The notes under the pieces: model-generated | What the model saw: the letters and a program-made list of their open reading frames with translations, nothing else | What the model was told of the DNA's origin: nothing | Databases searched by the model: none | Shown: piece after piece, positions 2 to 12,644 of the stretch | How the letters are laid out: every line of letters begins with the position of its first letter | Position numbering within the stretch: position 1 is the first letter of the stretch | Source of the DNA: a virus | Lineage: Duplodnaviria > Heunggongvirae > Uroviricota > Caudoviricetes | Virus record (IMG/VR): IMGVR_UViG_2671180695_000008 | Strand: one strand, 5' to 3' | Length of the DNA: 13,072 bases | Translations under genes and position numbers: made by a program

Positions 2-157
2 TTAACCGGTAAACGGGTGGTGTCTGTCCAGAAAGATGGTCGCAGAATTGAATATACGGCGGCTTCTCTGGATGAGCTTAACCGGGCGATCAATGATGCG
101 GAGTCGGTACTGGGGACAACCCGCCGTCGCCGTCGTCCGCTGGGAGTGAGGTTATGA
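2..157 (+). CDS. Head completion protein (lambda gpW-like), C-terminal part; 5' end lies outside the window
   Basis: Frame-2 translation ...GKRVVSVQKDGRRIEYTAASLDELNRAINDAESVLGTTRRRRRPLGVRL* resembles the C-terminus of lambda gpW as recalled (GKRVATVQKDGRRVEFTA...RRRG). Its stop overlaps the portal ATG (ATGA), and it sits directly upstream of the portal as in lambda W-B. Confidence 0.6.
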   Translation, partial: LTGKRVVSVQKDGRRIEYTAASLDELNRAINDAESVLGTTRRRRRPLGVRL

Positions 158-1026
158 AACGAACGCCTGTCCTGATTGATGTGAACGGCGTTCCGCTTCG
201 TGAGAGTCTCAGCTACAACGGGGGCGGTGCAGGATTTGGCGGGCAAATGGCGGAGTGGTTGCCACCGGCGCAGAGTGCCGATGCAGCCCTGCTGCCTGCG
301 TTGCGTCTGGGGAATGCCCGGGCAGATGATCTGGTGCGCAATAACGGGATAGCGGCCAATGCGGTGGCCCTGCATAAGGATCATATTGTCGGGCATATGT
401 TTCTGATCAGCTACCGTCCGAACTGGCGCTGGCTGGGGATGCGGGAGACTGCGGCAAAAAGTTTTGTCGATGAGGTGGAGGCGGCCTGGTCGGAATACGC
501 CGAAGGGATGTTTGGCGAGATCGACGTGGAAGAGAAACGCACGTTTACGGAATTTATTCGTGAAGGTGTGGGCGTTCATGCGTTTAACGGCGAAATCTTT
601 GTGCAGCCGGTCTGGGATACGGAGAGCACGCAACTGTTTCGTACGCGTTTTAAAGCCGTGAGTCCGAAACGGGTGGACACGCCAGGACACGGTATGGGGA
701 ACCGTTTTCTGCGGGCCGGTGTGGAGGTCGATCGATATGGTCGTGCCGTTGCGTACCATATCTGTGAGGATGATTTTCCGTTCTCCGGGAGTGGACGATG
801 GGAACGGATCCCGCGTGAACTTCCCACCGGGCGTCCGGCCATGCTGCATATTTTCGAGCCGGTGGAGGACGGGCAGACCCGTGGGGCTAATCAGTTTTAC
901 AGCGTCATGGAACGGCTGAAGATGCTCGATTCCCTGCAGGCAACACAGCTTCAGTCGGCCATAGTGAAGGCGATTTATGTCTATCATCTCACCGTAGTTG
1001 CCCGCATCGTTCGCCAACTCCACTGA
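154..1026 (+). pseudogene. Portal protein (lambda gpB-like), N-terminal fragment interrupted by an inserted element
   Basis: Translation matches the lambda gpB N-terminal half by recall (GNARADDLVRNNG, FEPVEDGQTRGAN, MLD.LQ.TQLQSAIVKA). Similarity ends after ...SAIVKAIY (codons through 978), followed by 16 unrelated codons (VYHLTVVARIVRQLH) and a stop. The remainder of the portal resumes at 11871. Confidence 0.85.
967..979. other. Candidate attL core (AAGGCGATTTATG) inside the portal coding sequence
   Basis: The same 13-mer with one mismatch (AAGGCGATGTATG) recurs at 11865..11877. Both copies are in the same codon phase of the portal frame, encoding K-A-(I/M)-Y. Confidence 0.65.
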
Positions 1027-1103
1027 AACCCTTGCTGCGTCTGGAATGTCGTTTTCCATGCTTTTGATGACCGTTCATCACCCTTCCAGTTTTTCGCGGT
1101 TTT

Positions 1104-1156
1104 GTGTATTGCAATGTGTATTGCAAATTGGCGATCGGGATGGGTGTGTATTGCAA
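1104..1156. repeat. Three direct copies of GTGTATTGCAA just upstream of int; candidate integrase arm-type binding sites
   Basis: Copies at 1104..1114, 1116..1126 and 1146..1156. Related copies lie at the opposite end of the element (11770..11790). Confidence 0.55.
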
Positions 1157-1174
1157 ATCTCTTGAGGGCTTTTA

Positions 1175-2416
1175 ATGGCTATTGAAAACAAACTCAGTGA
1201 CAAACTGTTAAAGAGTCTTGTCGGAAAACGGCAGGACAAACAAAAAACAATAGCGGATGGGCGCGGGTTGTCTGTGCGTGTAAGCATGGTTGGGGGGATC
1301 AGCTTTGTTTTTTACTATCGTCTTGGTGGCAGGGAATCCCCTCCGGTATGGCTTACACTTGGTCGCTATCCTGACATGTCTCTTGCAACGGCCAGGCGCA
1401 TGCGTGATCAGTGCCGTGAATGGCTGGCTGAAAATCTGGACCCCCGCAGGCAAATAAAACTTGCTGCCGAAAAAACTATGCAACCAGTGACCGTAAGGGA
1501 TGCGCTGTTTTACTGGTACGACAATCACGCCACAACAGCCAGAAAAGAGCATGAATATTTAATAAAACGATTTGAAAAGCATATCTTCCCCTATATCGGT
1601 GATATGGCTATAGAACAGTGCAAATTACACACATGGCTTACCGTCTTTGACAGGATCAAAAAAAATGCGCCTGTTATGTCTGGTGCAATTTTTCTTGATA
1701 TCAAACAGGCGTTGCGTTTTTGTCGCGTCAGGCAATACATCGCGTGCGATCCCTTTGGAGATATTAACGTAAGTTATGTCGGGCGCTCATCCGGTATAAG
1801 GGATCGCGTTCTTAATATCAATGAAACCGCTGATGTATGGTCTTATGCTTACGGTAATAATTTGCTAACTCTGTCATCAATATATAACCGAAGAATAATG
1901 GTTATCTGCCTGGTGTTTGGTTGCCGACAGCAGGAGGCGAGGCTATCCACCTGGGACGAATGGGATTTAAAAAACTGGGTATGGACAGTCCCAAAAGAGC
2001 ACAGCAAAAACAAGGAGGCTATAGTAAGGCCTGTTCCTGACGGAATAAAACAATGGATCGTTAATCTTTACGCAGAAACAAAAAATCGCGGTTATGTTGT
2101 CGGTTGTGCTTTGCAAAGGGCGACAATAACAGGGGCTGCAAACAGAATATGCAGGCGTCTTGGTCATGATACTAATGGCTTGTGGTGCATACATGATTTC
2201 AGGCGCACATTTTCCACTACGCTTAATGATATGGGGGCGGATCCTTATATTGTCGAACTTCTTTTAGGTCATAAAGTGAAAGGGGTTGCTGGTGTTTACA
2301 ATAAAAGCAGGCATATAAAGAAAAAACTTGAGGTGCTTAATATGTGGGTTAATTACCTTAATACGATAGCAGGATTTAACAACAACGTTATCGAGCTTAA
2401 TAAAGAGGTGGTGTGA
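1175..2416 (+). CDS. int: Tyrosine recombinase / integrase (P4-type)
   Basis: 413 aa ORF. N-terminal arm-binding-like region and a C-terminal catalytic region with HDFRRTF...LLGHK...GVAGVY motifs typical of phage integrases. First gene inside the insertion, next to the junction and arm-type repeats. Confidence 0.9.
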   Translation: MAIENKLSDKLLKSLVGKRQDKQKTIADGRGLSVRVSMVGGISFVFYYRLGGRESPPVWLTLGRYPDMSLATARRMRDQCREWLAENLDPRRQIKLAAEKTMQPVTVRDALFYWYDNHATTARKEHEYLIKRFEKHIFPYIGDMAIEQCKLHTWLTVFDRIKKNAPVMSGAIFLDIKQALRFCRVRQYIACDPFGDINVSYVGRSSGIRDRVLNINETADVWSYAYGNNLLTLSSIYNRRIMVICLVFGCRQQEARLSTWDEWDLKNWVWTVPKEHSKNKEAIVRPVPDGIKQWIVNLYAETKNRGYVVGCALQRATITGAANRICRRLGHDTNGLWCIHDFRRTFSTTLNDMGADPYIVELLLGHKVKGVAGVYNKSRHIKKKLEVLNMWVNYLNTIAGFNNNVIELNKEVV

Positions 2417-2417
2417 T

Positions 2418-2675
2418 ATGGCAATTTATTCTCTTGTTGATGAAAACGATTTGCGCACAATGAAGGACATTGATCGGTTCATTCGTGAAAAAGAGTGCAT
2501 AGCACTTACCACGCTGGCAAACTCAACACGCTGGAAAATGGAGCAGGCAGGTAAATTCCCGCGACGTATCAAGATCGGTGAACGTGCTGCAGGGTATCGA
2601 CTTTCAGAGGTTCAGGCATGGATCCGTGGTGAGTGGCATCCTGGATGGAAACCTGGAAAAACAAAACAGCAATAA
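2418..2675 (+). CDS. alpA: AlpA-family HTH regulator / excisionase-like protein
   Basis: 85 aa; motif ...ALTTLANSTRWKMEQAGKFPRRIKIGERAAGYRLSEVQAWI matches the AlpA (Phage_AlpA) fold pattern. Its start overlaps the int stop, and a strong SD (AGAGGTGG) precedes it. Confidence 0.85.
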   Translation: MAIYSLVDENDLRTMKDIDRFIREKECIALTTLANSTRWKMEQAGKFPRRIKIGERAAGYRLSEVQAWIRGEWHPGWKPGKTKQQ

Positions 2676-2688
2676 CCAGTAAATAATG

Positions 2689-2711
2689 CCCCTCATCACG
2701 AGGGGTTTTTT
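2689..2711 (+). terminator. Rho-independent terminator after alpA
   Basis: Stem CCCCTC (2689..2694) pairs with GAGGGG (2700..2705) around loop ATCAC, followed by TTTTTT (2706..2711). Confidence 0.8.
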
Positions 2712-2731
2712 GTCTATAAGGTAAAAACGCG

Positions 2732-3310
2732 ATGAATAAAAATATTGCTGTGACGGGCAAGGGGTACGCTCGTCCAGTGAAAAAATTCTGCGATATTCGT
2801 GATCTCGTCGTTCTGCGCTTTGATAGTGTGAACGTTCGTGTGGTGTATCTGAACGGCGATCCGTGGTTTGTTGCAAAAGATGTTTGTGCTGCGCTGGAAC
2901 TAACCAATTCGCGTACGGCGTTGCAGATGCTTGATGATGATGAAAAGGGAGTAAATTTAACTTACACCCCAGGAGGAAATCAGAATATGAGAATTATCTC
3001 TGAGTCAGGTTTCTACAAACTAATAGCCCGCAGCCGCAAAGCAACGACGCCTGGCACATTTGCTCATCGTTTCAGTAACTGGGTATTCAGAAATGTGATA
3101 CCAGGTATCAGAAAAACGGGGACTTATGGTATCCCGTGGGGTGCATTACAGGATTTTTCCCGCCGTAAAGAGCAATATCAAATAAGTGCCAGCGAGAAGG
3201 GGAGGGAGCTACAGGCATGTAAGCGCAAAAAGCGTGAGCTGGAGGAAGAAGAAAAAACGCTGATACGTGAATATCAGCCTGAGTTTTACTTTGGTAACCG
3301 CATTCAGTGA
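2732..3310 (+). CDS. Bro-N domain protein (phage antirepressor-like)
   Basis: 192 aa; the segment VRVVYLNGDPWFVAKDVCAALELTNSRTALQMLDDDEKG...ISESGFYKLIARSRKATTPGTFAHRFSNWV has the Bro-N / AntA N-terminal pattern (D/E-PWFVAKDV...L.....A). The C-terminal part is charged and probably coiled. Confidence 0.7.
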   Translation: MNKNIAVTGKGYARPVKKFCDIRDLVVLRFDSVNVRVVYLNGDPWFVAKDVCAALELTNSRTALQMLDDDEKGVNLTYTPGGNQNMRIISESGFYKLIARSRKATTPGTFAHRFSNWVFRNVIPGIRKTGTYGIPWGALQDFSRRKEQYQISASEKGRELQACKRKKRELEEEEKTLIREYQPEFYFGNRIQ

Positions 3311-3340
3311 CAAAACAAAGGCGACCGCAAAAGGGTCGCC
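3311..3340 (-). terminator. Hairpin acting mainly as a minus-strand intrinsic terminator, between the convergent Bro and minus-strand genes
   Basis: Stem GGCGACC (3320..3326) pairs with GGTCGCC (3334..3340) around loop GCAAAAG. On the minus strand it is followed by TTTGTTTTGT (plus 3311..3319). No U-run follows on the plus strand. Confidence 0.6.
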
Positions 3341-3406
3341 AGTGGGAACAAGGGAAAACAAAAGCATCACCAACAATGCCACATTTGCGGCTGGTGGGCA
3401 ATGTGA

Positions 3407-3586
3407 TCAGTCAGATTTGGTTCGTTCCAAGGTTTGCAACGAGAGCTTTTTCCTGTGCTCTTTAAGGAATTTCTCAAGAGCAAACGAACAAGGTGCGAAT
3501 CTTTCTGATTCATGTTCATGCGCTATATTTTTGCGTCGTCTCTTACGAGTTGGTGATGGTGTTTTGGTTGATTCTGTGTCGCTCAT
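3407..3586 (-). CDS. Small basic hypothetical protein (59 aa), absent from the supplied ORF track
   Basis: Translated by hand from the minus strand: MSDTESTKTPSPTRKRRRKNIAHEHESERFAPCSFALEKFLKEHRKKLSLQTLERTKSD*. An AGGA lies 8 nt upstream of the ATG; it follows the 3644..3949 gene and precedes the minus-strand terminator. Confidence 0.45.
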   Translation of the reverse strand: MSDTESTKTPSPTRKRRRKNIAHEHESERFAPCSFALEKFLKEHRKKLSLQTLERTKSD

Positions 3587-3643
3587 GGTGCTGTCCTGTA
3601 AAGCAATGCGCCTGCGTTCCTCAAACTATGGCGCTGATATTGG

Positions 3644-3949
3644 CTATTCATGCTCTTTGACCTTGCGTCGCTGGAGTTCTTCACGCGCGACGGTGACGAG
3701 TTGCCCGATCTCCTCGGCTGCTTTGATGCCGATTTGTTCGACCTTAGCCAGGGCATCCAGTGACGACACAAGGGGATTTTCTCCGCTGCCTTCTGCTTGG
3801 CGGCGGGCTATTTCTCCGCGCATGGCGGTTACGATAAATCCGGCATTGCTTTCACCGTCCAGCTTAACGGATTCCATCCCTTGCATAACATCTAGTGGGA
3901 CTCTGACAGTTGTCAGTTGTGATTTTGCGTTTTTGTTAGCCGTTGCCAT
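3644..3949 (-). CDS. Hypothetical small regulator (possible DNA-binding protein), divergent from the rightward operon
   Basis: 101 aa with a strong SD (TAGGAGTTTCAGAA-ATG on the minus strand). It is transcribed divergently from a palindromic operator region. No family is recognised with confidence; a ribbon-helix-helix-like N-terminus is possible but unverified. Confidence 0.55.
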   Translation of the reverse strand: MATANKNAKSQLTTVRVPLDVMQGMESVKLDGESNAGFIVTAMRGEIARRQAEGSGENPLVSSLDALAKVEQIGIKAAEEIGQLVTVAREELQRRKVKEHE

Positions 3950-3970
3950 TTCTGAAACTCCTAATCATCG

Positions 3971-4048
3971 GTGTGTTTCAGTATACACAAAAAAAGAAAT
4001 ACAAAAAGCCTTGACGTGTGTTTCATGCGCTCATAACATGAAACACAC
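3971..4048. promoter_or_regulatory. Divergent control region with a 12-bp perfect inverted repeat, a third half-site and a candidate rightward promoter
   Basis: GTGTGTTTCATG (4016..4027) and its reverse complement CATGAAACACAC (4037..4048) are separated by 9 bp. A further GTGTGTTTCA half-site lies at 3971..3980. TTGACG (4011..4016), a 17-bp spacer and TAACAT (4034..4039) overlap the palindrome. Confidence 0.55.
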
Positions 4049-4139
4049 CGAAAGGATTGTTGAAATACAAAGAGCAACGCCCCGCAGTGCTGGGAACACA
4101 TACGGGGCGTCTAACCAACAACGTAAACTAGGAGCCGTT

Positions 4140-4337
4140 ATGGTTGCTGTAAATCATATACCACACCTTGTACACACACAAACGGCCTTTGTGTGGCGTT
4201 TTCTGGCACTGAGTGCCGGAGAATCTCAAATCATCCACGTAACCGCCTGGACGGAACGCGAAGCGCGTAGCCGTTGCCCGTCCGGTTGTGTTGCTGTATT
4301 CGCTGCAAAAATCCGCCAGGGAGTGAGTCATGCTTAA
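4140..4337 (+). CDS. Hypothetical small protein (65 aa), possible first gene of the rightward operon
   Basis: ATG preceded by AGGAG at the correct spacing. It shares a frame with a long, compositionally odd ORF (3267..4337) that is otherwise rejected, so coding status is uncertain. Confidence 0.35.
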   Translation: MVAVNHIPHLVHTQTAFVWRFLALSAGESQIIHVTAWTEREARSRCPSGCVAVFAAKIRQGVSHA

Positions 4338-4515
4338 AACCTTCCGTGTATTTGCCCGAGCTGTTAACCCAATAGGCCACACAATTGGTATCGCTCAGAA
4401 TGTGAAGGCTGTTAATGTTCAGACGGCTATTGCTGCGGTGAGAAGCGAATCATCAGAATATGGCTTATCACAAGTCATTATTTCAGCAGTGTATGAATTA
4501 AAAGAGGTGCATTAA
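4330..4515 (+). CDS. Hypothetical protein (61 aa)
   Basis: SD GGAGTGAG upstream. Its stop overlaps the next start (TAATG), suggesting translational coupling. Confidence 0.5.
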   Translation: MLKTFRVFARAVNPIGHTIGIAQNVKAVNVQTAIAAVRSESSEYGLSQVIISAVYELKEVH

Positions 4516-4706
4516 TGCAGGAAATTACATTACACGAAGCCGCTGAACGTGCGCACCAGACAGAAATTATTTGCCGCCTTCTTGAGGTATACCCGAACAA
4601 AATTACAGATGCTGATATATCCGCACTGGCGAGCCTACTGGCGCGTCTTTCGGGAAGTGTCGCTAGTTTTTTGATTGAGGAAGAAAGTAAGCTGGTGGGG
4701 GATTAA
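4515..4706 (+). CDS. Hypothetical protein (63 aa)
   Basis: SD AAGAGG upstream; start is coupled to the preceding stop. Confidence 0.5.
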   Translation: MQEITLHEAAERAHQTEIICRLLEVYPNKITDADISALASLLARLSGSVASFLIEEESKLVGD

Positions 4707-4928
4707 ATGAATACAGAACGGGAAGTCTTTTTTAAATTGTTAGCATGTGCAGAAAGTTCATTAACTTTAAATAATTCAGCAAAAGCAATATTAAATATGT
4801 GGCTTGATTGCATAAATGACAATGAAGATGCAAATATTGCTTATGGCCTGTTGTCACTTATTGATGAATCAGCAGAAAAACTCAATGACGCAATAAATAG
4901 TGCCCTGCTATCAAATAAGTCGAGTTAA
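4707..4928 (+). CDS. Hypothetical protein (73 aa), visibly more AT-rich than its neighbours
   Basis: Starts immediately after the previous stop. Its base composition differs from flanking genes, suggesting a separately acquired cargo gene. Confidence 0.5.
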   Translation: MNTEREVFFKLLACAESSLTLNNSAKAILNMWLDCINDNEDANIAYGLLSLIDESAEKLNDAINSALLSNKSS

Positions 4929-4945
4929 GTCGAGGAATAAATAAT

Positions 4946-5245
4946 ATGGAAATGAAAAATTCTGGCTTTATTGCCAGCGGCCCCGCTCGACCTGAATTTA
5001 TGAACGGCGATATTTACCGCGATAAATACGGCGGCACGGTAACGATTAAAGGCGTGGCAGAACGGCGCATCACTTACCGCCGTGAGGGGTATAGCTATGA
5101 CTGCGTGATGCCTGTTTATCAGTTCCGGCGTGATTTTTCCCTGGTATATGCCGCACCCCGCAGTAAGCCCATCAGCAGGGAAAAAGCGTGGGGAAATATC
5201 CAGAAAATGAAAACCATGATTAACGGATTCAGAGGTAAAAAATGA
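4946..5245 (+). CDS. Hypothetical protein (99 aa)
   Basis: SD GAGGA upstream. Its stop overlaps the primase-helicase start (ATGA), placing it in the replication operon. Confidence 0.55.
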   Translation: MEMKNSGFIASGPARPEFMNGDIYRDKYGGTVTIKGVAERRITYRREGYSYDCVMPVYQFRRDFSLVYAAPRSKPISREKAWGNIQKMKTMINGFRGKK

Positions 5246-6996
5246 AACTGGCACCGAACGTAAAACAGCAGTCACGCGGCATAAAACACAAAGGAACAGA
5301 AGTCATTATTTTTGCGGGTAGTGATGCCTGGGCACACGCGAAACAATGGCAGGAACATGATGCGCGTATGGCCGGAGATAATGAGCCTCCTGTGTGGCTT
5401 GGGGAGCAGCAGCTATCCGAACTGGATAATCTGCAAATTGTGCCGGAAGGCCGAAAATCAGCACGCATATACAGGGCCGGATATCTTGCGCCTGTAATGA
5501 TAAAGGCGATTGGTCAGAAGCTGGCGGCAGCAGGCGTACAGGATGCAAATTTTTATCCTGAGGGTATGCACGGCCAGGAGGTGCAGAACTGGCGCGAATA
5601 TCTGGCCCGTGAACGCCAGAATCTTTCTGATGGTCTGGTCATTGAGCTTCCGGTAAAGCAAAAGGCGCAACTTTCGCAGATGGCGGACAGTGAGCGCGCG
5701 CAGTTGCTTGCCGATCGCTTTGATGGCGTTTGCGTACATCCTGAAAGTGAAATCGTTCACGTATGGCGCGGCGGGGTATGGTGTCCGGTCAGCACAATGG
5801 AACTTAGCCGCGAAATGGTGGCGATCTATTCAGAGCACAGGGCCACTTTCAGCAAGCGCGTAATCAATAACGCCGTGGAAGCGTTAAAAGTTATTGCCGA
5901 ACCAATGGGCGAGCCGTCTGGCGATTTGCTGCCGTTCGCCAATGGTGCGCTTGACCTGAAAACGGGGGAATTTTCCCCGCACACGCCGGAGAACTGGATC
6001 ACCACGCACAACGGCATTGAGTACACGCCACCAGCACCAGGGGAGAACATCCGCGATAACGCGCCAAACTTTCATAAATGGCTTGAGCACGCAGCCGGAA
6101 AAGACCCGCGCAAGATGATGCGTATATGTGCCGCGCTGTACATGATTATGGCGAACCGGTACGACTGGCAGATGTTTATTGAGGCCACCGGAGACGGCGG
6201 GAGCGGTAAAAGTACATTCACACACATAGCCAGCCTTCTGGCAGGGAAACAGAACACGGTAAGCGCTGAAATGACATCGCTTGATGATGCTGGTGGACGT
6301 GCGCAGGTTGTCGGGAGTCGTCTTATCGTCCTGGCTGACCAGCCGAAATATACAGGCGAAGGAACGGGCATCAAGAAAATCACAGGCGGCGACCCCGTGG
6401 AAATTAACCCGAAATATGAAAAGCGTTTCACGGCGGTAATCAGGGCGGTGGTGCTGGCGACCAACAACAACCCGATGATATTCACCGAACGGGCCGGAGG
6501 TGTGGCACGTCGTCGCGTGATTTTCCGTTTCGACAATATCGTCAGTGAGGCCGAAAAAGACAGGGAGCTACCGGAAAAGATTGCGGCTGAAATCCCCGTT
6601 ATTATCCGCCGATTGCTGGCGAACTTTACCGACCCTGAGAAGGCACGGGCTTTACTACTGGAACAGCGTGACGGTGATGAAGCACTGGCAATAAAGCAAC
6701 AGACGGATCCGGTTATTGAGTTTTGCCAGTTCCTGAATTTTCTGGAGGAAGCGCGCGGCCTGATGATGGGTGGCGGTGGTGATTCAGTGAAGTACACGAC
6801 CAGGAACAGCCTTTACCGCGTCTATCTGGCGTTTATGGCATACGCGGGCAGGAGCAAACCGCTAAACGTGGCTGAGTTCAGCAAGGCCATGAAGCCAGCG
6901 GCGAAAGTTTACGGGCATGAATATATTACGCGAAAAGTTAAGGGAGTAACGCAGACCAACGCAATTACAACAGACGATTGCGACGCGTTTTTATAA
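5242..6996 (+). CDS. Replication protein: P4-alpha / D5-type primase-helicase (SF3 P-loop NTPase)
   Basis: 584 aa. Walker A motif ATGDGGSGKST, a D5_N-like segment LPFANGALDLKTGEF and a following NTPase core resemble the C-terminal helicase region of P4-family primases. The N-terminal ~150 aa are not confidently assigned. An iteron array follows immediately. Confidence 0.85.
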   Translation: MKLAPNVKQQSRGIKHKGTEVIIFAGSDAWAHAKQWQEHDARMAGDNEPPVWLGEQQLSELDNLQIVPEGRKSARIYRAGYLAPVMIKAIGQKLAAAGVQDANFYPEGMHGQEVQNWREYLARERQNLSDGLVIELPVKQKAQLSQMADSERAQLLADRFDGVCVHPESEIVHVWRGGVWCPVSTMELSREMVAIYSEHRATFSKRVINNAVEALKVIAEPMGEPSGDLLPFANGALDLKTGEFSPHTPENWITTHNGIEYTPPAPGENIRDNAPNFHKWLEHAAGKDPRKMMRICAALYMIMANRYDWQMFIEATGDGGSGKSTFTHIASLLAGKQNTVSAEMTSLDDAGGRAQVVGSRLIVLADQPKYTGEGTGIKKITGGDPVEINPKYEKRFTAVIRAVVLATNNNPMIFTERAGGVARRRVIFRFDNIVSEAEKDRELPEKIAAEIPVIIRRLLANFTDPEKARALLLEQRDGDEALAIKQQTDPVIEFCQFLNFLEEARGLMMGGGGDSVKYTTRNSLYRVYLAFMAYAGRSKPLNVAEFSKAMKPAAKVYGHEYITRKVKGVTQTNAITTDDCDAFL

Positions 6997-7010
6997 TTTT
7001 TTGTAAAAGC

Positions 7011-7232
7011 CATCTACCCCATCTACCTGAACAAAATAAACGCATATTATTCAACATGATAAGTGGGTATAGGGCTAGGTAGAAGGCTAATAAAAGCTCT
7101 CTACCTCTTCTACCTGATTTTATCAGTTTCAGGTAGCAGGGTAGACGGCAGGTAGAGGAGTCAAAAAGCTATCTACCCGCTGAAAGCCGCGCCATTACTG
7201 ACATGATGAGCATTCGGGTAGATGGGTAGAGG
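7011..7232. repeat. Iteron array; candidate replication origin
   Basis: About 11 copies of the core TCTACC / GGTAGA in both orientations within ~220 bp (for example CATCTACCCCATCTACC, CTCTACCTCTTCTACC, GGTAGCAGGGTAGACGGCAGGTAGAGG, GGTAGATGGGTAGAGG). It lies directly downstream of the primase-helicase gene in an otherwise non-coding stretch. Confidence 0.7.
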
Positions 7233-7280
7233 GGGGGAGGCACAACTAAAAACTTTTTAAACGAGGGGGGGTGAAAATAA

Positions 7281-7595
7281 ATGCGCATACATAAAAATCA
7301 CTTAACAAACATGCCAGCCGAAAACATGAATCAGGGGCGACAAATGACCAAAATTCGCAGAGACAGAACACAGGCAAAATATAAAGCGTTAGACATGACA
7401 GAGCTTTCCTTAAAGGTGGCAATCAAAGCGATAGACCACCACACACGGGCAGGATACGCGAAGGAACATCCCGACCTGATAAGCGCATTCATGACCACAG
7501 CAGCGGCAAACTTTGCCACGCTGACAGAACGGGAGATTGCCGAAGCGGAACAGGTGACAACCATCAATGTTAAAACCGGAGAGCAGACAGCATGA
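7281..7595 (+). CDS. Hypothetical protein (104 aa)
   Basis: G-rich SD (GAGGGGGGG) upstream. Its stop overlaps the next start (ATGA). The start codon is uncertain because internal Met codons exist. Confidence 0.5.
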   Translation: MRIHKNHLTNMPAENMNQGRQMTKIRRDRTQAKYKALDMTELSLKVAIKAIDHHTRAGYAKEHPDLISAFMTTAAANFATLTEREIAEAEQVTTINVKTGEQTA

Positions 7596-8014
7596 CAGCA
7601 CAGATAGCGGCTTACGGGCGGCTGGTGGCTGACCCGCAGTTAAAGACCACCAGCAAAGGGACACAAATGGCGATGGCGAGTATGGCGGTTCCCCTGCCGT
7701 GCAGCCAGGCAGATGACGGAACGGCGACGATGTGGTTATCCGTCCTGGCGTTTGGCAGACAGGCCGACGCACTGGCAAAACACCACAAAGGCGAACTGGT
7801 GAGCGTGGCGGGTAACATGCAGGTAAGCCAGTGGACAGGCCAGAACGGCGAAACGCGGCGGGGCTGGCAGGTTATCGCAGACAGCGTAATCAGTGCGCGA
7901 ACGGCGCGACCGGGCGGCAAAAAAGGCCAGCAGGGGCAGGCCACTGACGCACTGAACAGGGCAAAACAACAGTCGGGGAATGATGATCCGTACGGCGATA
8001 ATATACCGTTTTAA
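7592..8014 (+). CDS. ssb: Single-stranded DNA-binding protein-like (OB fold, C-terminal ...NIPF tail)
   Basis: 140 aa with the pattern GRLVADPQL...G...A.......W.SV.AFG..A..LAK..KGELV.V.G......W....G..R.....ADSV, then a Gly/Gln-rich linker ending DDPYGDNIPF. This resembles the SSB OB core and its acidic ...DDDIPF protein-interaction tail. Confidence 0.7.
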   Translation: MTAQIAAYGRLVADPQLKTTSKGTQMAMASMAVPLPCSQADDGTATMWLSVLAFGRQADALAKHHKGELVSVAGNMQVSQWTGQNGETRRGWQVIADSVISARTARPGGKKGQQGQATDALNRAKQQSGNDDPYGDNIPF

Positions 8015-8021
8015 ATTCTGC

Positions 8022-8050
8022 AAACAAAAAGATGCCGGAAAAAAATAGAT
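8022..8050. other. 11-bp-stem hairpin in the SSB / capsid intergenic region (possible terminator or regulatory structure)
   Basis: ATGCCGGAAAA (8022..8032) pairs with TTTTCCGGCAT (8040..8050) around a 7-nt loop. No clean U-run follows on the plus strand, so terminator function is uncertain. Confidence 0.4.
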
Positions 8051-8225
8051 TTTCCGGCATGCTACATAAATCCCGACCAAAGGAAGTAAATACATTAACA
8101 CGAATTATCAGCACTGAAGTTGTTACGGCATATTTTATACAACATTGCACTTGGTTGCATGTATTCGCATAGCAGACATCGGTAATAGAATATATTCACA
8201 ATTATTTGTAATGAATGTAAAGAGG

Positions 8226-9272
8226 ATGAGTATGGTTGATTTATATTCGCCTACACAGCTTGTGCAGGTGGCTAATGCTGAAGATGTGCAAAAAAAATTA
8301 AATGCGTTGTTTACCAGTTTGTTTTTCACTCGCTCGGTAATGTTTGAATCGAGAGACATTATTCTTGATACGATCGACGATCCAAATATCCCGATCGCGG
8401 CGTTTTGCTCTCCTATGGTGGGCAGTAAAGTTTCACGAGATGAGGGATACGAATCAAAAACAATTCGTCCAGGTTATATGAAGCCGAAAAGCAGCATTGA
8501 TCCAAATAAGTTAGCTGTGCGCCCTGCTGGTGTGTCACCTGAGCAATACAATGCTTTTGGGGCGCGTAATATTAAAGTTAAACAGGCGATTGTAAATCAG
8601 GCTAAAGCTATTCGTGCACGTATTGAATGGCTTGCTGTTCAGGCAATCACAACGGGGAAAAATATCATTGAGGGCGATGGTATTGAACGTTATGAGCTGG
8701 ACTGGAATATAAAACCACAAAATATCATCACTCAGTCTGGCGGTACTGAGTGGTCAGGTAAGGATAAAGAAACTTTTGATCCAAATGATGATATTGAGAG
8801 CTACGCAGAATTTAGTGAGGGCGTCACTAATATCATCATTATGGGTGGTAATGTATGGAAGAAATACCGTTCATTCAGAGCGATAAAAGAGGCTTTGGAT
8901 ACCCGTCGTGGTTCTAATTCCGAACTGGAAACGGCCCTTAAAGACCTTGGTGATTCGGTGAGTTTTAAAGGGTATATGGGCGATGTTGCGATTGTTGTTT
9001 ACAGCGGGCGTTATACCGACGAGGACGGAACAGAAAAACATTTCCTTGATCCTGATTTGATGGTGCTTGGCAATACGGCTCTTCAGGGGATTGTCGCCTA
9101 TGGCGGTATTCAGGATCCGGAGCTAATCCGAATGGGGCTGACTAAAGCCGAACTTGCACCGAAAAACTATATTGTGCCTGGTGATCCGGCTATTGAATAT
9201 GTGCAGACACATTCAGCACCACAGCCAATACCGGCCCGCATCAATCGTTTTGTTACCGTTCGCATTGGCTAA
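8226..9272 (+). CDS. Major capsid protein (lambda gpE-like)
   Basis: Motifs NIITQSGGTEWS, DTRRGSNSELETA, GDVAIVVYSG and MVLGNT match lambda E as recalled. The chosen start MSMVDLYSPTQL parallels lambda MSMYTTAQL and has SD AGAGGA; the ORF track's upstream start at 8145 is less likely. Confidence 0.85.
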   Translation: MSMVDLYSPTQLVQVANAEDVQKKLNALFTSLFFTRSVMFESRDIILDTIDDPNIPIAAFCSPMVGSKVSRDEGYESKTIRPGYMKPKSSIDPNKLAVRPAGVSPEQYNAFGARNIKVKQAIVNQAKAIRARIEWLAVQAITTGKNIIEGDGIERYELDWNIKPQNIITQSGGTEWSGKDKETFDPNDDIESYAEFSEGVTNIIIMGGNVWKKYRSFRAIKEALDTRRGSNSELETALKDLGDSVSFKGYMGDVAIVVYSGRYTDEDGTEKHFLDPDLMVLGNTALQGIVAYGGIQDPELIRMGLTKAELAPKNYIVPGDPAIEYVQTHSAPQPIPARINRFVTVRIG

Positions 9273-9281
9273 GGGGGAGCA

Positions 9282-9623
9282 ATGGCTACTCATTACACTG
9301 AACTCATGGCTGGCACTGAAGCACTGGTGACTACGCTGGGGATATTTTCAGCTAATAAAGGGGTAATTCCTGCATTTACGCCACTGATGCAGGAAGATGC
9401 AACAGGTGCACTGGTGGTATGGGATGGTTCGAGCGTAGGTAAAGCGGTTTATGTTTCCGCTGTACAAATCGACACAGCGAAAAAAACACAGGCACAGGTT
9501 TATAAGACAGGTGTTTTAAATGTTGATGCTCTGAACTGGCCTGAGTCTGTAAAAGAACTGTCGGCAAAGGTTGCCGCGTTTGTTGGCTCAGGTATTTCTG
9601 TTCAGCCGCTGGCTCGTGTGTAA
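9282..9623 (+). CDS. Head decoration protein (lambda gpD-like)
   Basis: 113 aa; the pattern TPLM....G.LV.WDG...G.AV.......T.....YK.G......L.WPE matches lambda D as recalled. SD GGGGGAG upstream. It follows the capsid gene, the reverse of the lambda D-E order. Confidence 0.75.
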   Translation: MATHYTELMAGTEALVTTLGIFSANKGVIPAFTPLMQEDATGALVVWDGSSVGKAVYVSAVQIDTAKKTQAQVYKTGVLNVDALNWPESVKELSAKVAAFVGSGISVQPLARV

Positions 9624-9634
9624 AGGGGGATACA

Positions 9635-10018
9635 ATGCAGAATCATTACAATGACCTTAAGCCAATTGCCGAAATGATGTATCCGGATCCAGCAGTAGAG
9701 GAATTAAAGGCTATTGCTGACAAAATGCGTTTAAGTGAACGCCTTGTTGATATGAATCAGGTGATGGAACTTACTACCCTTAGCCGTCGCACATTGCTAA
9801 ACCTTGAGGCTCGCGGAGAGTTCCCCGAACGCGTACAGGTTACGGAAGGGCGTAAGGCCTGGTATTTAAGTGAAGTGATCGACTGGATAAACAATATTCC
9901 TCGATCTTCTGAATATTGCCGCGTACCTGTCCCAAAAAAGCCAGATGCGGCGCTATGCCTCAAGATTGAGCGTGTACGTCGCAATGCACGGGATGGTCGC
10001 TATAAGTTGATTGGTTGA
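9635..10018 (+). CDS. AlpA/MerR-like HTH domain protein (second AlpA-family member)
   Basis: 127 aa; the segment VDMNQVMELTTLSRRTLLNLEARGEFPERVQVTEGRKAWYLSEVIDWI fits the AlpA-type HTH pattern. It has an N-terminal extension and a basic C-terminus, a GGGGGA SD upstream, and lies immediately upstream of the cos site. Confidence 0.6.
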   Translation: MQNHYNDLKPIAEMMYPDPAVEELKAIADKMRLSERLVDMNQVMELTTLSRRTLLNLEARGEFPERVQVTEGRKAWYLSEVIDWINNIPRSSEYCRVPVPKKPDAALCLKIERVRRNARDGRYKLIG

Positions 10019-10029
10019 TGAAATTAGGG

Positions 10030-10108
10030 CCCGTTCTGGCTGGCGGGTCCTTTCCGGCGATCCGGTAGGCTACGGGGCGGCGACCTCGCGGGTTTTCGCT
10101 ATTTATGA
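10030..10108. other. Lambda-type cos site (cosQ-proximal sequence plus cosN with the 12-nt cohesive end GGGCGGCGACCT)
   Basis: 10072..10108 ACGGGGCGGCGACCTCGCGGGTTTTCGCTATTTATGA is identical to the recalled lambda cosN / left-end sequence (cohesive end at 10075..10086). The upstream GGGTCCTTTCCGGCGATCCGGTAGGCTACG closely matches the recalled lambda right-end sequence. Downstream cosB-like sequence has diverged, and a Nu1-like gene follows. Confidence 0.85.
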
Positions 10109-10219
10109 GCCTTTTTCGGGTGCTGGTGGTGGTTTTGTTGTTCGCTCTATCTCTATGAATAAAAAGGAAAAGATAAAGCCAATACACCAACCTGAAACAT
10201 TACTTAAGTGGGGATATTG

Positions 10220-10762
10220 ATGAAATCGCACCTGATGAACAAAAAAAACATGGCGCAAAGCTGCCATGTAAGTGCGACAGCGTTCGACAAGTGGGGAGTG
10301 ACTCCCGTTGAACGTAAAGGCCGCGAGGCGTTTTATGATGTTGCCAGCGTAATAGACAATCGGGTTAGCAATGCAATTAACCAGATTACAGACGACAAAG
10401 GCGAGATTGATGATGATGAACTCCTACGAGTCAGGATCAGATTGCTGACAGCACAGGCAGAGGCGCAGGAGCTTAAAAACGAGCGCGAACGCGGCGACGT
10501 TATTGATACCGCGTTTTGTATATACGTGCTTTCAAAATTGGCGAGTCAGATTTCTTCAATCATGGACAGCCTGCCGCTTGCCATGACAAGGAAGTTTCCC
10601 GACATGAAGCCGTCTATGCTGGATGGACTGAAAAAAGAAGTTATCAGAGCCTGTAACGCATGCGCAAAACTTGACGAAAACATACCGCTGATGCTGTCCG
10701 ATTATCTGATGGAAACTGCCGGAAACGTACCGGATAAGTTGCAGCCGAATAAAGATAAGTAA
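10220..10762 (+). CDS. Terminase small subunit (lambda Nu1-like)
   Basis: Matches lambda Nu1 by recall (RLTRAQADAQELKNARD...ETAFC.FVLSRIAGEIASILDGLPL...RFPE compared with RLLTAQAEAQELKNERERGDVIDTAFCIYVLSKLASQISSIMDSLPLAMTRKFPD). Start is uncertain: ATG at 10220 (GGGGA SD) is chosen, with alternatives GTG 10208 and ATG 10235. It sits downstream of cos as in lambda. Confidence 0.85.
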   Translation: MKSHLMNKKNMAQSCHVSATAFDKWGVTPVERKGREAFYDVASVIDNRVSNAINQITDDKGEIDDDELLRVRIRLLTAQAEAQELKNERERGDVIDTAFCIYVLSKLASQISSIMDSLPLAMTRKFPDMKPSMLDGLKKEVIRACNACAKLDENIPLMLSDYLMETAGNVPDKLQPNKDK

Positions 10763-10773
10763 CGTAGTACGCT

Positions 10774-11055
10774 ATGACTGAATCCGAAATACTGCGATTA
10801 ATCCGCCGTGCTTGTGGAATCAGCAAGCAGCATGACGAACAGGCCACGCAGCCGGACAGCGTGACCGCAGATAATTATGTGCGTGTAGTGGCTGAGGTGA
10901 TGCGCCGTGACGGTATTGAGCTTAACGGCGTGGATATGCGCAACATACGAACAAGAGTCCTTGAGTTGCTGGCATATCGTCGCCGTTCTCAACAACGGAG
11001 GGAGAGCGCGAAAAACACTTACCAGTGGAAGAAGCCGGAACGATTGCGGCGGTAA
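10774..11055 (+). CDS. Hypothetical basic protein (93 aa) in the position where lambda encodes the large terminase
   Basis: ORF starts 11 nt after the TerS stop and is Arg-rich. No convincing family match; no obvious SD, so possibly translationally coupled. Confidence 0.45.
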   Translation: MTESEILRLIRRACGISKQHDEQATQPDSVTADNYVRVVAEVMRRDGIELNGVDMRNIRTRVLELLAYRRRSQQRRESAKNTYQWKKPERLRR

Positions 11056-11070
11056 CTTGCTGATATTCCC

Positions 11071-11094
11071 GATAACGCAAAATTGCGCTGGCTG
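11071..11094. repeat. Direct repeat GATAACGC-N5-TTGCGCTGGCTG (copy 1; copy 2 at 11257..11280)
   Basis: The two 24-bp copies differ at 3 positions and lie 186 bp apart in the non-coding right arm. Each is followed by a TTGCA/TGCAA-type near-palindrome. Confidence 0.5.
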
Positions 11095-11306
11095 ACTTGT
11101 TGCATTGCAAAAAGTTAAGCAGGAAGGCACGGCCTGTAAGATGGGATGCAGTAAGTAGTTCAAGGCTACCTTGTGCTGGCACGCACAGTTAAGCCGTCGG
11201 TGCTGGATATCCCCCACTGGGGGAAAAGCTGGCTACATCCCTCACATCTGAGGACTGATAACGCGACATTGCGCTGGCTGGCAAAGTGCAAAATTGCACG
11301 ATGGCC

Positions 11307-11468
11307 TAACCCATTGATTATTTCGAAAACCTGCAATGCAGGAAATCGGGGAAGTAAGCCTAAGCTATTGATTGTTTCGAAAACCCCCATTGGGGGATGT
11401 CGGGAAAGTAAGACTAACCCATTGATTCTTCCACAATCCTCAATTTGAGGAGGCCGGAACGTCTACAT
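11307..11468. repeat. Tandem ~54-bp repeat (3 units) each containing a 5-bp-stem, 3-nt-loop hairpin with covarying stems; candidate structured RNA or recognition array
   Basis: Units 11307..11360, 11361..11414 and 11415..11468 share TAA(C/G)C(C/T)ATTGATT...TTCGAAAAC and CGGG.AAGTAAG flanks. Internal hairpins are CCTGC-AAT-GCAGG (11330..11342), CCCCC-ATT-GGGGG (11384..11396) and CCTCA-ATT-TGAGG (11438..11450). The third unit is more diverged. Confidence 0.6.
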
Positions 11469-11769
11469 AGCTGCATCGCCGTAATGATGATTCAGCCCAC
11501 CAGCCAAATCAGCACAGCAACGACAGAATAGCCCGACACAGAAAAACCACGAATATGGGGTTTTTGTTATGACATGGTCATGATGACCACTCATACAAAA
11601 CAGGTAAAGCCCACCAGCCTGATTAAAGGTTAACCGGAAAAAAGCCAGGTATCCAATCTCGATATGGGGATCCCTATATCGACATTAACGCCCACTAAAA
11701 CTGTGCATATATGCATAGAAAAAGCATCCACCAGCTTTATGACGGATGCCGCTCATCTTATAAATAATC

Positions 11770-11790
11770 GTGTATTGCAGTGTGTATTGC
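11770..11790. repeat. Two direct copies of GTGTATTGC(A) near the right junction; candidate integrase arm-type sites
   Basis: GTGTATTGCA at 11770..11779 and GTGTATTGC at 11782..11790, in the same orientation as the three copies beside int. An AT-rich tract lies between them and the att core. Confidence 0.5.
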
Positions 11791-11864
11791 GACTCCTTTA
11801 AACGATAGGTCTGAGCATTCGTAATGTACTGTTTTTAAATTTTATTTTTTCCTGTCTTTTCATA

Positions 11865-11877
11865 AAGGCGATGTATG
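11865..11877. other. Candidate attR core (AAGGCGATGTATG)
   Basis: Matches 967..979 at 12 of 13 positions. Portal homology resumes here (IKAMYAATIE...). Confidence 0.65.
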
Positions 11878-12644
11878 CAGCGACGATTGAAAGTGACCTT
11901 GATACCGAAAAGGCCTTTGAATATATCGCCGGTGCGCCGCAGGGGCAGAAGGATAATCCGCTTATTAATATTCTGGATAAGTTCTCCACCTGGTATGACA
12001 CGAATAGCGTGACGCTGGGTGGTGTCAAAATTCCGCACCTTTTCCCCGGTGATGATCTGAAACTTCAGACCGCGCAGGATTCAGACAATGGATTTTCGGC
12101 GCTTGAACAGGCGCTGCTGCGGTATATCGCCGCCGGTCTTGGCGTTTCCTACGAACAGTTGTCCCGTGATTACTCGAAGGTCAGTTATTCAAGTGCCCGC
12201 GCATCCGCCAATGAGTCGTGGCGCTATTTTATGGGGCGGCGAAAATTTATTGCGTCCCGGCTGGCCACGCAGATGTTTTCCTGCTGGCTGGAAGAGGCAC
12301 TTCTTCGGGGGATTATTCGTCCGCCACGGGCACGTTTTGATTTTTATCAGGCGCGATCAGCCTGGTCACGGGCTGAGTGGATTGGAGCCGGAAGAATGGC
12401 CATTGACGGGCTCAAGGAGGTTCAGGAATCAGTGATGCGCATTGAGGCCGGACTGAGCACGTATGAGAAAGAGCTGGCGCTGATGGGCGAGGATTATCAG
12501 GACATTTTCCGCCAGCAGGTCAGGGAATCTGCAGAGCGGGAAAAAGCCGGACTCTCACGTCCGGTGTGGATAGCGCAGGCGTATCAGCAGAAGATAGCGG
12601 AGAGTCGCAGGCCGGAAGAGGAGACAACACCACGTGAGACGTAA
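11871..12644 (+). pseudogene. Portal protein (lambda gpB-like), C-terminal fragment downstream of the insertion
   Basis: Translation MYAATIESDLDTEKAFEYI...LGGVKIPHLFPGDDLKLQTAQDSDNGFSALEQALLRYIAAGLGVSYEQLSRDYSKVSYSSARASANESWRYFMGRRKF...WIGAGRMAIDGLKEVQESVMRIEAGLSTYEKE matches the lambda gpB C-terminal half by recall. The ORF begins at a fortuitous in-frame ATG, and similarity starts at about 11862. Confidence 0.85.

What the first reader, a model, noticed from the sequence alone, without database searches (positions are those of the whole stretch)
7011..7232. Dense bidirectional iteron array immediately downstream of the primase-helicase
About eleven TCTACC/GGTAGA cores in ~220 bp non-coding DNA is the classic arrangement of a replicon origin beside its initiator gene. 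It implies autonomous replication of the excised element.
Basis: partly seen in the sequence, partly recalled or inferred. Interest (0 to 1): 0.5.

Follow-up and report, generated by a model that had tools for sequence, protein, structure and literature searches.

The report
Replication origin of a phage satellite
The repeat cluster is real and is the replication origin of an E. coli phage satellite (a PICI), but this type of origin was already described and tested in a 98%-identical relative, so the finding is correct and ordinary.

Summary
Observation confirmed. There are ten exact TCTACC/GGTAGA cores, one GCTACC variant and one decayed GGTATA copy. All lie in 7013-7230 and none elsewhere in the 13-kb window (0 of 200 shuffles reach 10).

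Interpretation supported. The window is an EcCICFT073-family PICI embedded in the portal gene of a lambdoid prophage. Its initiator Pri (5242-6996) is 98% identical to EcCICFT073 Pri. The EcCICFT073 pri-ori fragment replicates a plasmid. Mapping the published primers shows that the deleted 'ori' is exactly the homologous intergenic iteron region.

Across nine E. coli-family origins the cores are 94% conserved against 75% for the spacers. Pri homologues at 40-53% identity (Serratia, Morganella, vB_KppS-Ant) keep the same arrangement of sites with a different core, TGTTCAC(C) or TGTTCAT. P4 alpha also uses TGTTCACC. A relative with an unrelated RepA-type helicase has AAGTGGGGA repeats in front of the same downstream genes.

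Pri has an SF3 helicase core and a C-terminal winged helix matching the P4 alpha origin-binding domain. Likely mechanism: Pri binds the convergent iterons and melts the 26%-GC spacer 7028-7065.

Caveats: this copy is untested, and 'primase' rests only on a TOPRIM-like fold. Already known; low interest.

The parts
5242..6996 (+). pri (pri-rep): the initiator, 584 aa
   Evidence: Pfam D5_N, DUF5906 and Pox_D5 C-terminal domain. TIGR01613 P4-family primase C-terminal domain. 98% aa identity to EcCICFT073 Pri. 40% identity to P4 alpha over aa 141-573.
5242..5643 (+). Pri N-terminal module (aa 1-134), TOPRIM-like fold, exchangeable between initiator types
5926..6726 (+). SF3 helicase core (D5_N plus P4-family 'primase C-terminal' ATPase, aa 229-495)
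   Evidence: TIGR01613 E 1.9e-31. PDB 7OLA, SaPI5 PriRep, E 3.7e-15 over aa 190-432.
6703..6969 (+). C-terminal winged-helix domain (aa 488-576), the presumed iteron reader
   Evidence: phmmer hit to PDB 1KA8, the P4 alpha origin-binding winged helix, E 8.2e-6 (identity of 1KA8 from PMC2777425). 83-100% conserved among TCTACC-type Pri and 30-34% identical to TGTTCA-type homologues.
6997..7343 (.). whole ori module, from the pri stop to the boundary of homology with relatives that carry another initiator
   Evidence: Homology with the RepA-type locus L009 begins at query position 844, which is window 7343 (H35). The EcCICFT073 'ori' deletion spans the homologous interval.
7013..7018 (+). iteron 1, TCTACC
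   Evidence: invariant in 9 of 9 origins
7022..7027 (+). iteron 2, TCTACC
   Evidence: invariant in 9 of 9
7028..7065 (.). AT-rich spacer 1 (26% GC), candidate DNA-unwinding element
   Evidence: Holds the most AT-rich 30-mer of the intergenic region, 80% AT at 7033. AT-rich in every relative although the sequence diverges.
7066..7071 (-). decayed iteron, GGTATA (one mismatch)
   Evidence: The aligned position is an intact GGTAGA in KE21, O157 and the CFT073-type origins.
7078..7083 (-). iteron 3, GGTAGA
   Evidence: Shared with KE21 and O157 only.
7100..7105 (+). iteron 4, TCTACC
   Evidence: 8 of 9
7109..7114 (+). iteron 5, TCTACC
   Evidence: 8 of 9
7115..7131 (.). AT-rich spacer 2 (24% GC) between the central convergent iteron sets
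7132..7137 (-). iteron 6, variant GGTAGC
   Evidence: Specific to this lineage.
7140..7145 (-). iteron 7, GGTAGA
   Evidence: 9 of 9
7151..7156 (-). iteron 8, GGTAGA
   Evidence: 8 of 9
7172..7177 (+). iteron 9, TCTACC
   Evidence: 9 of 9
7180..7200 (.). conserved non-iteron block CTGAAAGCCGCGCCATTACTG, role unknown
   Evidence: 96% mean column identity over 9 origins. Absent from distant relatives.
7217..7222 (-). iteron 10, GGTAGA
   Evidence: 9 of 9
7225..7230 (-). iteron 11, GGTAGA
   Evidence: 9 of 9
7249..7262 (.). invariant AAAACTTTTTAAAC at the 3' edge of the array
   Evidence: invariant columns in alignment A1

Best explanation
The array is the single replication origin of a Gram-negative phage-inducible chromosomal island (PICI) of the EcCICFT073 family. 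Here the island is embedded in the portal gene of a lambdoid prophage.

Shown:
- Eleven 6-bp iterons (TCTACC) lie directly 3' of the initiator gene. They form three convergent groups: >> AT-rich <(<), then >> AT-rich <<<, then > GC-block <<.
- The cores are conserved while the spacers drift.
- The core sequence changes when the helicase and winged-helix part of the initiator changes.
- The homologous region of EcCICFT073, together with a 98%-identical Pri, is needed for efficient plasmid maintenance.

Inferred:
- After induction and excision, Pri binds the iterons through its C-terminal winged helix, which is homologous to the P4 alpha origin-binding domain.
- Pri assembles as SF3-type hexamers on the opposed iteron sets and melts the 26%-GC spacer at 7028-7065, and possibly 7115-7131.
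- It loads itself as the replicative helicase, as proposed for SaPI Rep proteins.
- Priming comes either from Pri's own N-terminal TOPRIM-like module or from host DnaG. This step is open.
For: - Clustering and statistics.
- PICI context, with int, alpA, pri, SSB, capsid and terS-like genes inside split portal halves.
- Pri is 98% identical to EcCICFT073 Pri.
- In the origin alignment A1, core columns are 94% identical and 79% invariant, against 75% and 25% for non-core columns. 0 of 20,000 random placements reach the observed value.
- Published function of EcCICFT073 pri-ori, with delta-ori and delta-pri controls: PMC6092414. The primers map delta-ori to the sequence from 4 nt after the pri stop to just inside the next ORF.
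- Same site architecture with a different core in Serratia (TGTTCAC), Morganella (TGTTCAT) and vB_KppS-Ant (TGTTCACC), at 40-53% protein identity. P4 alpha, also 40% identical, uses TGTTCACC in a different layout.
- The RepA-type initiator locus L009 has AAGTGGGGA repeats and no TCTACC, although its downstream protein is 80% identical.
- Winged-helix hit to 1KA8 and helicase hit to SaPI5 PriRep 7OLA.
- Site centres fit a 10.5-bp period (Rayleigh R 0.65, p about 0.01 before correction for 12 periods tested).
Against: - No experiment exists on this exact element.
- For the one helper-embedded PICI studied experimentally (11capE), post-excision replication was detectable in only one of three repeats (PMC10111431).
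- In EcCICFT073, deleting ori reduced colony numbers but is not reported to abolish them.
- Binding of Pri to TCTACC has not been shown here or in the papers I read.
- No DnaA or IHF boxes were found. That is not unusual for self-loading initiators, but it leaves host-factor involvement undefined.
- The helical phasing is only suggestive after correction for multiple testing.
Confidence: 0.9

Rival explanations
1. The repeats are an operator or roadblock array that controls transcription running from pri into the SSB, capsid and packaging genes. They are not an origin.
For: The array lies between pri and the downstream operon. There is no terminator or sigma-70 promoter hit, so read-through transcription must cross it. 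The last iterons are 50-110 nt from the next start codon.
Against: The repeat sequence follows the upstream initiator, not the downstream genes. L009 keeps an 80%-identical downstream protein but has AAGTGGGGA repeats. The homologous region behaves as an origin on a plasmid. A secondary regulatory effect of Pri binding is not excluded.
Confidence: 0.04
2. The array is a P4 crr-like cis-acting enhancer only, and replication actually starts at a second, separate origin elsewhere in the element, as in P4.
For: P4 alpha is the closest characterised homologue (40% identity). P4's crr sits in the same place, immediately downstream of alpha, with bidirectional short iterons.
Against: There is no second cluster. 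No exact TCTACC lies outside 7013-7230, and no other 220-bp stretch has more than 5 one-mismatch copies. The window covers the whole element, about 980-11864. The EcCICFT073 pri-ori fragment alone supports plasmid maintenance.
Confidence: 0.04
3. The repeats are a packaging or recombination signal, for example binding sites for a small terminase, Rpp-type protein or integrase.
For: The element carries a small-terminase-like gene (10208-10762). PICIs of this family are packaged from cos sites.
Against: The repeats co-vary with the helicase and winged-helix part of the initiator. The integrase arm-like repeats have a different sequence (TGTGTATTGC) and lie at the element ends. The EcCICFT073 cos sites were mapped as separate elements in PMC6092414.
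Confidence: 0.01

Closest known systems
EcCICFT073 PICI pri-ori replicon (Fillol-Salom et al., ISME J 2018, PMC6092414)
   Same: Same gene order (DUF4222, a 584-aa pri, a roughly 290-bp intergenic array, a hypothetical gene, SSB, capsid). Pri is 98% identical. The core is TCTACC, with 9 of 11 sites at homologous positions and orientations. Both share the conserved CTGAAAGCCGCGCCATTACTG block. [quoted passage not shown]
   Different: The spacer sequences are mosaic: the left half resembles the KE21 and O157 elements, the right half resembles CFT073. One reverse site has moved (7078 in place of the decayed 7066). CFT073 has a third forward site in the central set, where the window instead has an extra GCTACC reverse site. 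The integration site differs: a prophage portal gene here, a chromosomal site upstream of phoQ in CFT073. This copy is untested.
SaPI / Gram-positive PICI origins (Ubeda et al. 2007, 2012, as summarised in PMC9371898)
   Same: The origin lies immediately downstream of rep. It has 6-12 penta- or hexanucleotide iterons, an AT-rich centre, and at least two iterons on each side pointing in opposite directions. The initiator is a self-loading SF3 helicase with a C-terminal winged helix. The window meets all of these features.
   Different: The iteron sequences are unrelated. Only the helicase core is detectably homologous (E 3.7e-15 to SaPI5 PriRep). The window array has three convergent groups rather than one.
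Satellite phage P4 alpha protein with its crr and ori
   Same: Pri is 40% identical to alpha across the helicase and winged-helix domains, and it hits the 1KA8 origin-binding domain. P4's crr lies directly downstream of alpha and consists of short bidirectional iterons. Intermediate relatives (Serratia, vB_KppS-Ant) use the P4 core TGTTCAC(C) in the window's architecture.
   Different: The core is TCTACC rather than TGTTCACC. P4 has two cis elements 4.5 kb apart, and its crr is a 2 x 120-bp duplication. The window has a single array and no second cluster. P4 has a terminator between alpha and crr, and none is found here. Alpha's zinc-ribbon and Toprim primase domain is replaced by a 134-aa module.
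Helper-embedded PICIs, site B:Phage_portal_2:241 (PMC10111431)
   Same: The element lies inside, and is co-oriented with, the portal gene of a lambdoid prophage. The portal ORF breaks at about profile position 242. It has the int-alpA-pri order and repeated arm-like motifs next to the att sites. That paper states that such elements carry their own primase and origin.
   Different: Nothing relevant to the origin. The paper did not dissect the origin.
Iteron-controlled plasmid origins (pSC101, R6K, F, P1 type; from my own knowledge)
   Same: Repeated initiator-binding sites lie next to an AT-rich unwinding region, beside the initiator gene.
   Different: Plasmid iterons are about 17-22 bp, mostly direct repeats. 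They are bound by a non-helicase Rep protein that needs DnaA and DnaB/DnaC. Here the cores are 6 bp and bidirectional, the initiator is itself a helicase, and no DnaA box is present.

Membership tests
Gram-negative PICI (EcCICFT073-type) replication origin | Lies immediately 3' of the pri/rep initiator gene | tested here: met
   The pri stop is at 6996 and the first iteron core at 7013.
Gram-negative PICI (EcCICFT073-type) replication origin | Sets of short iterons in opposite orientation flanking an AT-rich region | tested here: met
   7013 and 7022 (+) face 7066 and 7078 (-) around a 26%-GC spacer. 7100 and 7109 (+) face 7132, 7140 and 7151 (-) around a 24%-GC spacer.
Gram-negative PICI (EcCICFT073-type) replication origin | Sequence homology to the characterised EcCICFT073 pri and ori | tested here: met
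   Pri is 98% aa identical. The origin aligns with 9 of 11 cores at invariant columns.
Gram-negative PICI (EcCICFT073-type) replication origin | PICI context: int, alpA, unidirectional genes, no tail or lysis genes, about 10-20 kb | tested here: met
   The element is about 10.9 kb, from 980 to 11864.
Gram-negative PICI (EcCICFT073-type) replication origin | pri plus ori drives replication of an otherwise non-replicating plasmid | not testable with these tools
   This was done for the orthologue only (PMC6092414).
Gram-negative PICI (EcCICFT073-type) replication origin | The iteron sequence is specific to the cognate initiator | tested here: met
   By comparative analysis only. TCTACC occurs with the 80-100%-identical Pri proteins. 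TGTTCAC(C) or TGTTCAT occurs with the 40-53%-identical homologues. AAGTGGGGA occurs with the RepA-type initiator.
P4 bipartite origin (ori plus crr) | Type I iteron TGTTCACC | tested here: not met
   There is no TGTTCAC in 6997-7343. The core is TCTACC.
P4 bipartite origin (ori plus crr) | Two separated iteron clusters, both required in cis | tested here: not met
   There is only one cluster in the whole element.
P4 bipartite origin (ori plus crr) | Alpha-type initiator with a zinc-ribbon and Toprim primase domain | tested here: not met
   [not shown]
P4 bipartite origin (ori plus crr) | SF3 helicase plus C-terminal origin-binding winged helix homologous to alpha | tested here: met
   40% identity over aa 141-573. 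The 1KA8 hit has E 8.2e-6.
SaPI-type origin | 6-12 penta- or hexamer iterons downstream of rep, with at least two on each side of an AT-rich centre pointing in opposite directions | tested here: met
   The criteria are taken from PMC9371898.
Iteron plasmid origin (pSC101, R6K, P1 type) | Direct repeats of about 17-22 bp, plus DnaA boxes | tested here: not met
   The cores are 6 bp and bidirectional. No DnaA box is found within one mismatch, except a poor TTTTACAAA.
Helper-embedded PICI (HE-PICI) | [quoted passage not shown] | tested here: met
   The portal halves are 154-979 and 11865-12644, both 97% identical to an intact portal gene. They share a 13-nt overlap AAGGCGAT(T/G)TATG. The same arrangement is seen in NZ_CP062871.

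The most novel reading that the evidence does not exclude
E. coli PICI replicons may be built from two independently exchangeable cassettes. The first is a 134-aa TOPRIM-like module without a zinc ribbon, shared at 61% identity by SF3-type and RepA-type initiators. The second is a cassette of helicase, DNA-binding domain and iterons, whose 3' boundary lies at 7343. If the small module is an active primase, it would be an unusually minimal DnaG-type primase that works with two unrelated helicases. The invariant GC-rich block at 7180-7200 could then be its priming or loading site. In a helper-embedded PICI the origin might also fire in situ and co-amplify the helper prophage.
Probability: 0.15. 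Interest if true: 0.45.

Novelty: already known. Interest (0 to 1): 0.13.

Why it matters
The result confirms that this satellite carries its own complete replicon: an initiator and its cognate origin. Such elements can therefore amplify after helper-phage induction and spread at high frequency. The general point, and this origin family in particular, were published in 2018, so the finding adds an annotated example and no new biology. Three by-products are modestly useful. One is an explicit iteron map and consensus. Another is evidence that the site architecture is conserved from the E. coli PICIs out to elements that use the P4-type core, while the core itself switches. The third is the observation that the initiator's N-terminal module is swapped independently of the helicase-iteron cassette.

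Tried and rejected
- Sigma-70 promoter and intrinsic terminator scan of 6900-7400: no hits. This gives no support for a promoter or terminator reading.
- Rfam gathering scan of the whole window: no hits.
- DnaA box and IHF site searches: nothing credible.
- Megablast of pri-ori-SSB against the phage collection: no match. The element is chromosomal and satellite-borne.
- Helical phasing: there is a peak at 10.5 bp (R 0.65, p about 0.01), but 12 periods were tested, so it is only suggestive.
- The genome-contig scan returned only three loci. That was enough for a qualitative covariation test but not a statistical one.
- Single-sequence AF2 model of Pri aa 1-153: pLDDT 41, discarded. The alignment-based model was usable.
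- hhalign of the N-terminal module against the P4 alpha and Morganella primase domains was negative.
- I looked for a conserved hairpin in the 7180-7216 block by eye. An inverted repeat present in CFT073 is not conserved in the window or in KE21, so I dropped the idea.
- The idea that the Pri N-terminus reads the iteron flanks was rejected. The same module occurs with AAGTGGGGA-type origins.

Full report
1. The observation.

The hexamer TCTACC, counted on both strands, occurs ten times in the 13,072-base window, and every copy lies between 7013 and 7230. The whole-window expectation is 3.0, and none of 200 dinucleotide-preserving shuffles reaches ten. From base composition, a single 218-bp stretch should hold 0.11 copies, so the Poisson probability of ten or more is about 8e-17.

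When the sites are oriented, five lie on the + strand (7013, 7022, 7100, 7109, 7172) and five on the - strand (7078, 7140, 7151, 7217, 7225). There is also a GCTACC variant at 7132 (-) and a one-mismatch relic, GGTATA, at 7066 (-). The flanks give a loose ten-base consensus, C-Y-N-TCTACC-Y.

The sites form three convergent groups, and each group opens with AAAAGC (7005, 7092, 7164):
- >> [38 bp, 26% GC] (<)<
- >> [17 bp, 24% GC] <<<
- > [39 bp, 54% GC] <<

The region is non-coding: pri ends at 6996 and the next ORF starts at 7281 or 7344.

2. Context.

The window is an E. coli chromosomal element, with identical copies in several complete genomes. Its gene order is integrase (1175-2416), AlpA (2418-2675), a BRO-N protein, an Icd-like protein, small unknown genes, DUF4222, a 584-aa 'DNA primase family protein' (5242-6996), the repeat array, a small protein, SSB, major capsid, a decoration protein, an HTH regulator and a terminase-small-subunit-like gene. 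This is the layout of a Gram-negative PICI.

The element, about 980-11864, interrupts the portal gene of a lambdoid prophage. The portal halves are 154-979 and 11865-12644, each 97% identical to an intact portal gene, and they share a 13-nt att overlap. This arrangement is already published as a helper-embedded PICI. The break at about position 242 of the Phage_portal_2 profile matches the site named B:Phage_portal_2:241 (PMC10111431).

3. Relatives in E. coli.

A 1.2-kb query around the array matches 1,659 of 5,426 complete E. coli genomes at least in part. I fetched eight representative loci and EcCICFT073 itself.

Every locus with a homologous Pri (80-98% amino-acid identity) has 9-11 TCTACC cores at the same positions and orientations. 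This holds even where the intergenic DNA is too diverged for megablast. In the nine-sequence alignment the core columns are 94% identical and 79% invariant, against 75% and 25% for the remaining columns of the array. None of 20,000 random placements of eleven hexamers does as well. Individual sites turn over, for example 7066 against 7078, or an extra forward site in the CFT073 type, but the total number stays constant.

4. The repeat follows the initiator.

Locus L009 carries nearly the same downstream genes; the first protein is 80% identical. Its initiator, beyond residue 134, is an unrelated RepA-family helicase. Its 200-bp intergenic region has no TCTACC. It has AAGTGGGGA-type repeats instead: 7 copies of AAGTGGG in the both-strand k-mer count, and 5 exact or 10 one-mismatch copies of AGTGGGG in the site map.

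More distant Pri homologues keep the window's architecture with another core:
- Serratia aquatilis (53% identity): TGTTCAC at offsets 38> 48> (92<) 112> 123> 156< 176< 187> 231< 240<
- Morganella morganii (52%): TGTTCAT
- vB_KppS-Ant (41%): TGTTCAC(C) at 32> 42> 86< 106> (117>) 125> 171< 181< (201>) 246< 254<
- The window, for comparison: 17> 26> (70<) 82< 104> 113> (136<) 144< 155< 176> 221< 229<

P4 alpha (40% identical over Pri residues 141-573) has its annotated crr directly downstream of the gene. That crr has bidirectional type-1 repeats TGTTCACC, and a second cluster (ori) lies 4.5 kb away.

The C-terminal 110 residues of Pri are 85-97% identical within the TCTACC group, but only 30-34% identical to the TGTTCA group.

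5. The initiator.

Pri contains D5_N, a P4-family SF3 ATPase (TIGR01613, DUF5906) and a Pox_D5-type C-terminal domain. By sequence it hits the helicase core of SaPI5 PriRep (7OLA, E 3.7e-15). Its residues 488-576 hit 1KA8 (E 8.2e-6). 1KA8 is the winged-helix origin-binding domain of P4 alpha (PMC2777425). 7OLA is a self-loading helicase whose winged helix reads the SaPI iterons (PMC9371898).

The first 134 residues are a separate module. They are 61% identical to the N-terminus of the L009 RepA-type initiator (E 5e-54), so they cannot determine iteron specificity. They have no Pfam or PDB sequence match.

6. Published function.

Fillol-Salom et al. [quoted passage not shown] They cloned EcCICFT073 pri-ori into a temperature-sensitive plasmid. 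Colonies appeared at the restrictive temperature, the pri (rep) mutant plasmid gave none, and deleting ori significantly reduced their number.

I mapped their primers on the CFT073 chromosome. The delta-ori construct ends 4 nt after the pri stop. The pri-ori construct ends about 20 nt into the next ORF; that reverse primer was placed by eye because it has one indel relative to the RefSeq sequence. The tested 'ori' is therefore the roughly 300-bp iteron region, homologous to window 7001 to about 7303.

7. Mechanism.

Shown:
- the position, number, orientation and conservation of the sites;
- covariation of the core with the helicase and winged-helix part of the initiator;
- the function of the orthologous fragment.

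Inferred by analogy with SaPI Rep proteins and P4 alpha:
- Pri binds the iterons through the winged helix.
- Hexamers assemble on the opposed site sets.
- The AT-rich spacer 7028-7065 melts. It holds the most AT-rich 30-mer of the region, and it stays AT-rich in all relatives despite sequence drift.
- Pri loads itself as the helicase.

Site centres fit a 10.5-bp period (R 0.65, p about 0.01 before correction for the 12 periods tested), which hints that the sites lie on one face of the helix. No DnaA or IHF boxes, promoters, terminators or Rfam families were found. How primers are made is open.

8. Rivals.

- A transcriptional operator array is contradicted by L009 and by the plasmid experiment.
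- A P4-like crr enhancer with a separate start site is contradicted by the absence of any second cluster in the element and by the sufficiency of the pri-ori fragment.
- A packaging or recombination signal is contradicted by the covariation with the initiator, and by the distinct arm-type repeats (TGTGTATTGC) at the element ends.

9. Caveats.

This copy has not been tested. For the one helper-embedded PICI examined experimentally, post-excision replication was seen in only one of three repeats. So 'autonomous replication of the excised element' is likely but not guaranteed in this configuration.

10. Verdict.

The feature belongs to a described and functionally tested origin family, so it is already known and of low interest. 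Three points remain unexplained: the invariant GC-rich block 7180-7200, the invariant AAAACTTTTTAAAC at 7249-7262, and the nature of the exchangeable TOPRIM-like module.

Noticed in passing
window 154-979 and 11865-12644 (portal halves); element about 980-11864; att overlap at 967-979 and 11865-11877: The whole satellite is inserted in, and co-oriented with, the portal gene of a lambdoid prophage, with a 13-nt overlap AAGGCGAT(T/G)TATG. [quoted passage not shown] Excision would restore the helper's portal gene.
   Followed up: partly
window 1103-1116, 1115-1128, 1145-1158 and 11781-11790: The motif TGTGTATTGC(AA) is repeated three times just upstream of int and once near the right end. These are probably integrase or AlpA arm-type sites, and may be the 'doubled DNA motif' reported as unique to helper-embedded PICIs.
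   Followed up: partly
[not shown]
   Followed up: partly
window 7180-7200: The block CTGAAAGCCGCGCCATTACTG, between iterons 9 and 10, is 96% conserved across nine E. coli-family origins. That is more than any other spacer. It is absent from the Serratia, Morganella, vB_KppS-Ant and P4 arrays. No known motif was found.
   Followed up: partly
window 7249-7343: AAAACTTTTTAAAC (7249-7262) is invariant. The start of the downstream ORF is ambiguous. RefSeq uses the equivalent of ATG 7281 in relatives but ATG 7344 in the identical genome. The PHROG match and the homology with L009 both begin at 7344, which would make 7281-7343 part of the pri-ori cassette.
   Followed up: partly
window 6997-7240 compared with L002, L005 and L011: The origin is mosaic. 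Its left third (to about 7110) is closest to the KE21 and O157 elements, and the rest is closest to EcCICFT073. The Pri N-terminal module is of the CFT073 type, while the C-terminal domain is identical to KE21. This points to recombination inside the replication module.
   Followed up: partly
window 3267-4337 (+): This 356-aa ORF has no Pfam hit and is not annotated in RefSeq. RefSeq instead places a YlcI/YnfO gene on the minus strand (window 3644-3949) and an Icd-like gene (about 4140-4337) here. The long ORF is probably spurious.
   Followed up: no
L009 3301-3501: The RepA-type PICI origin has AAGTGGGGA repeats, almost all in one orientation (one reversed copy), around a long A-rich centre. 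This architecture differs from the convergent TCTACC array.
   Followed up: partly
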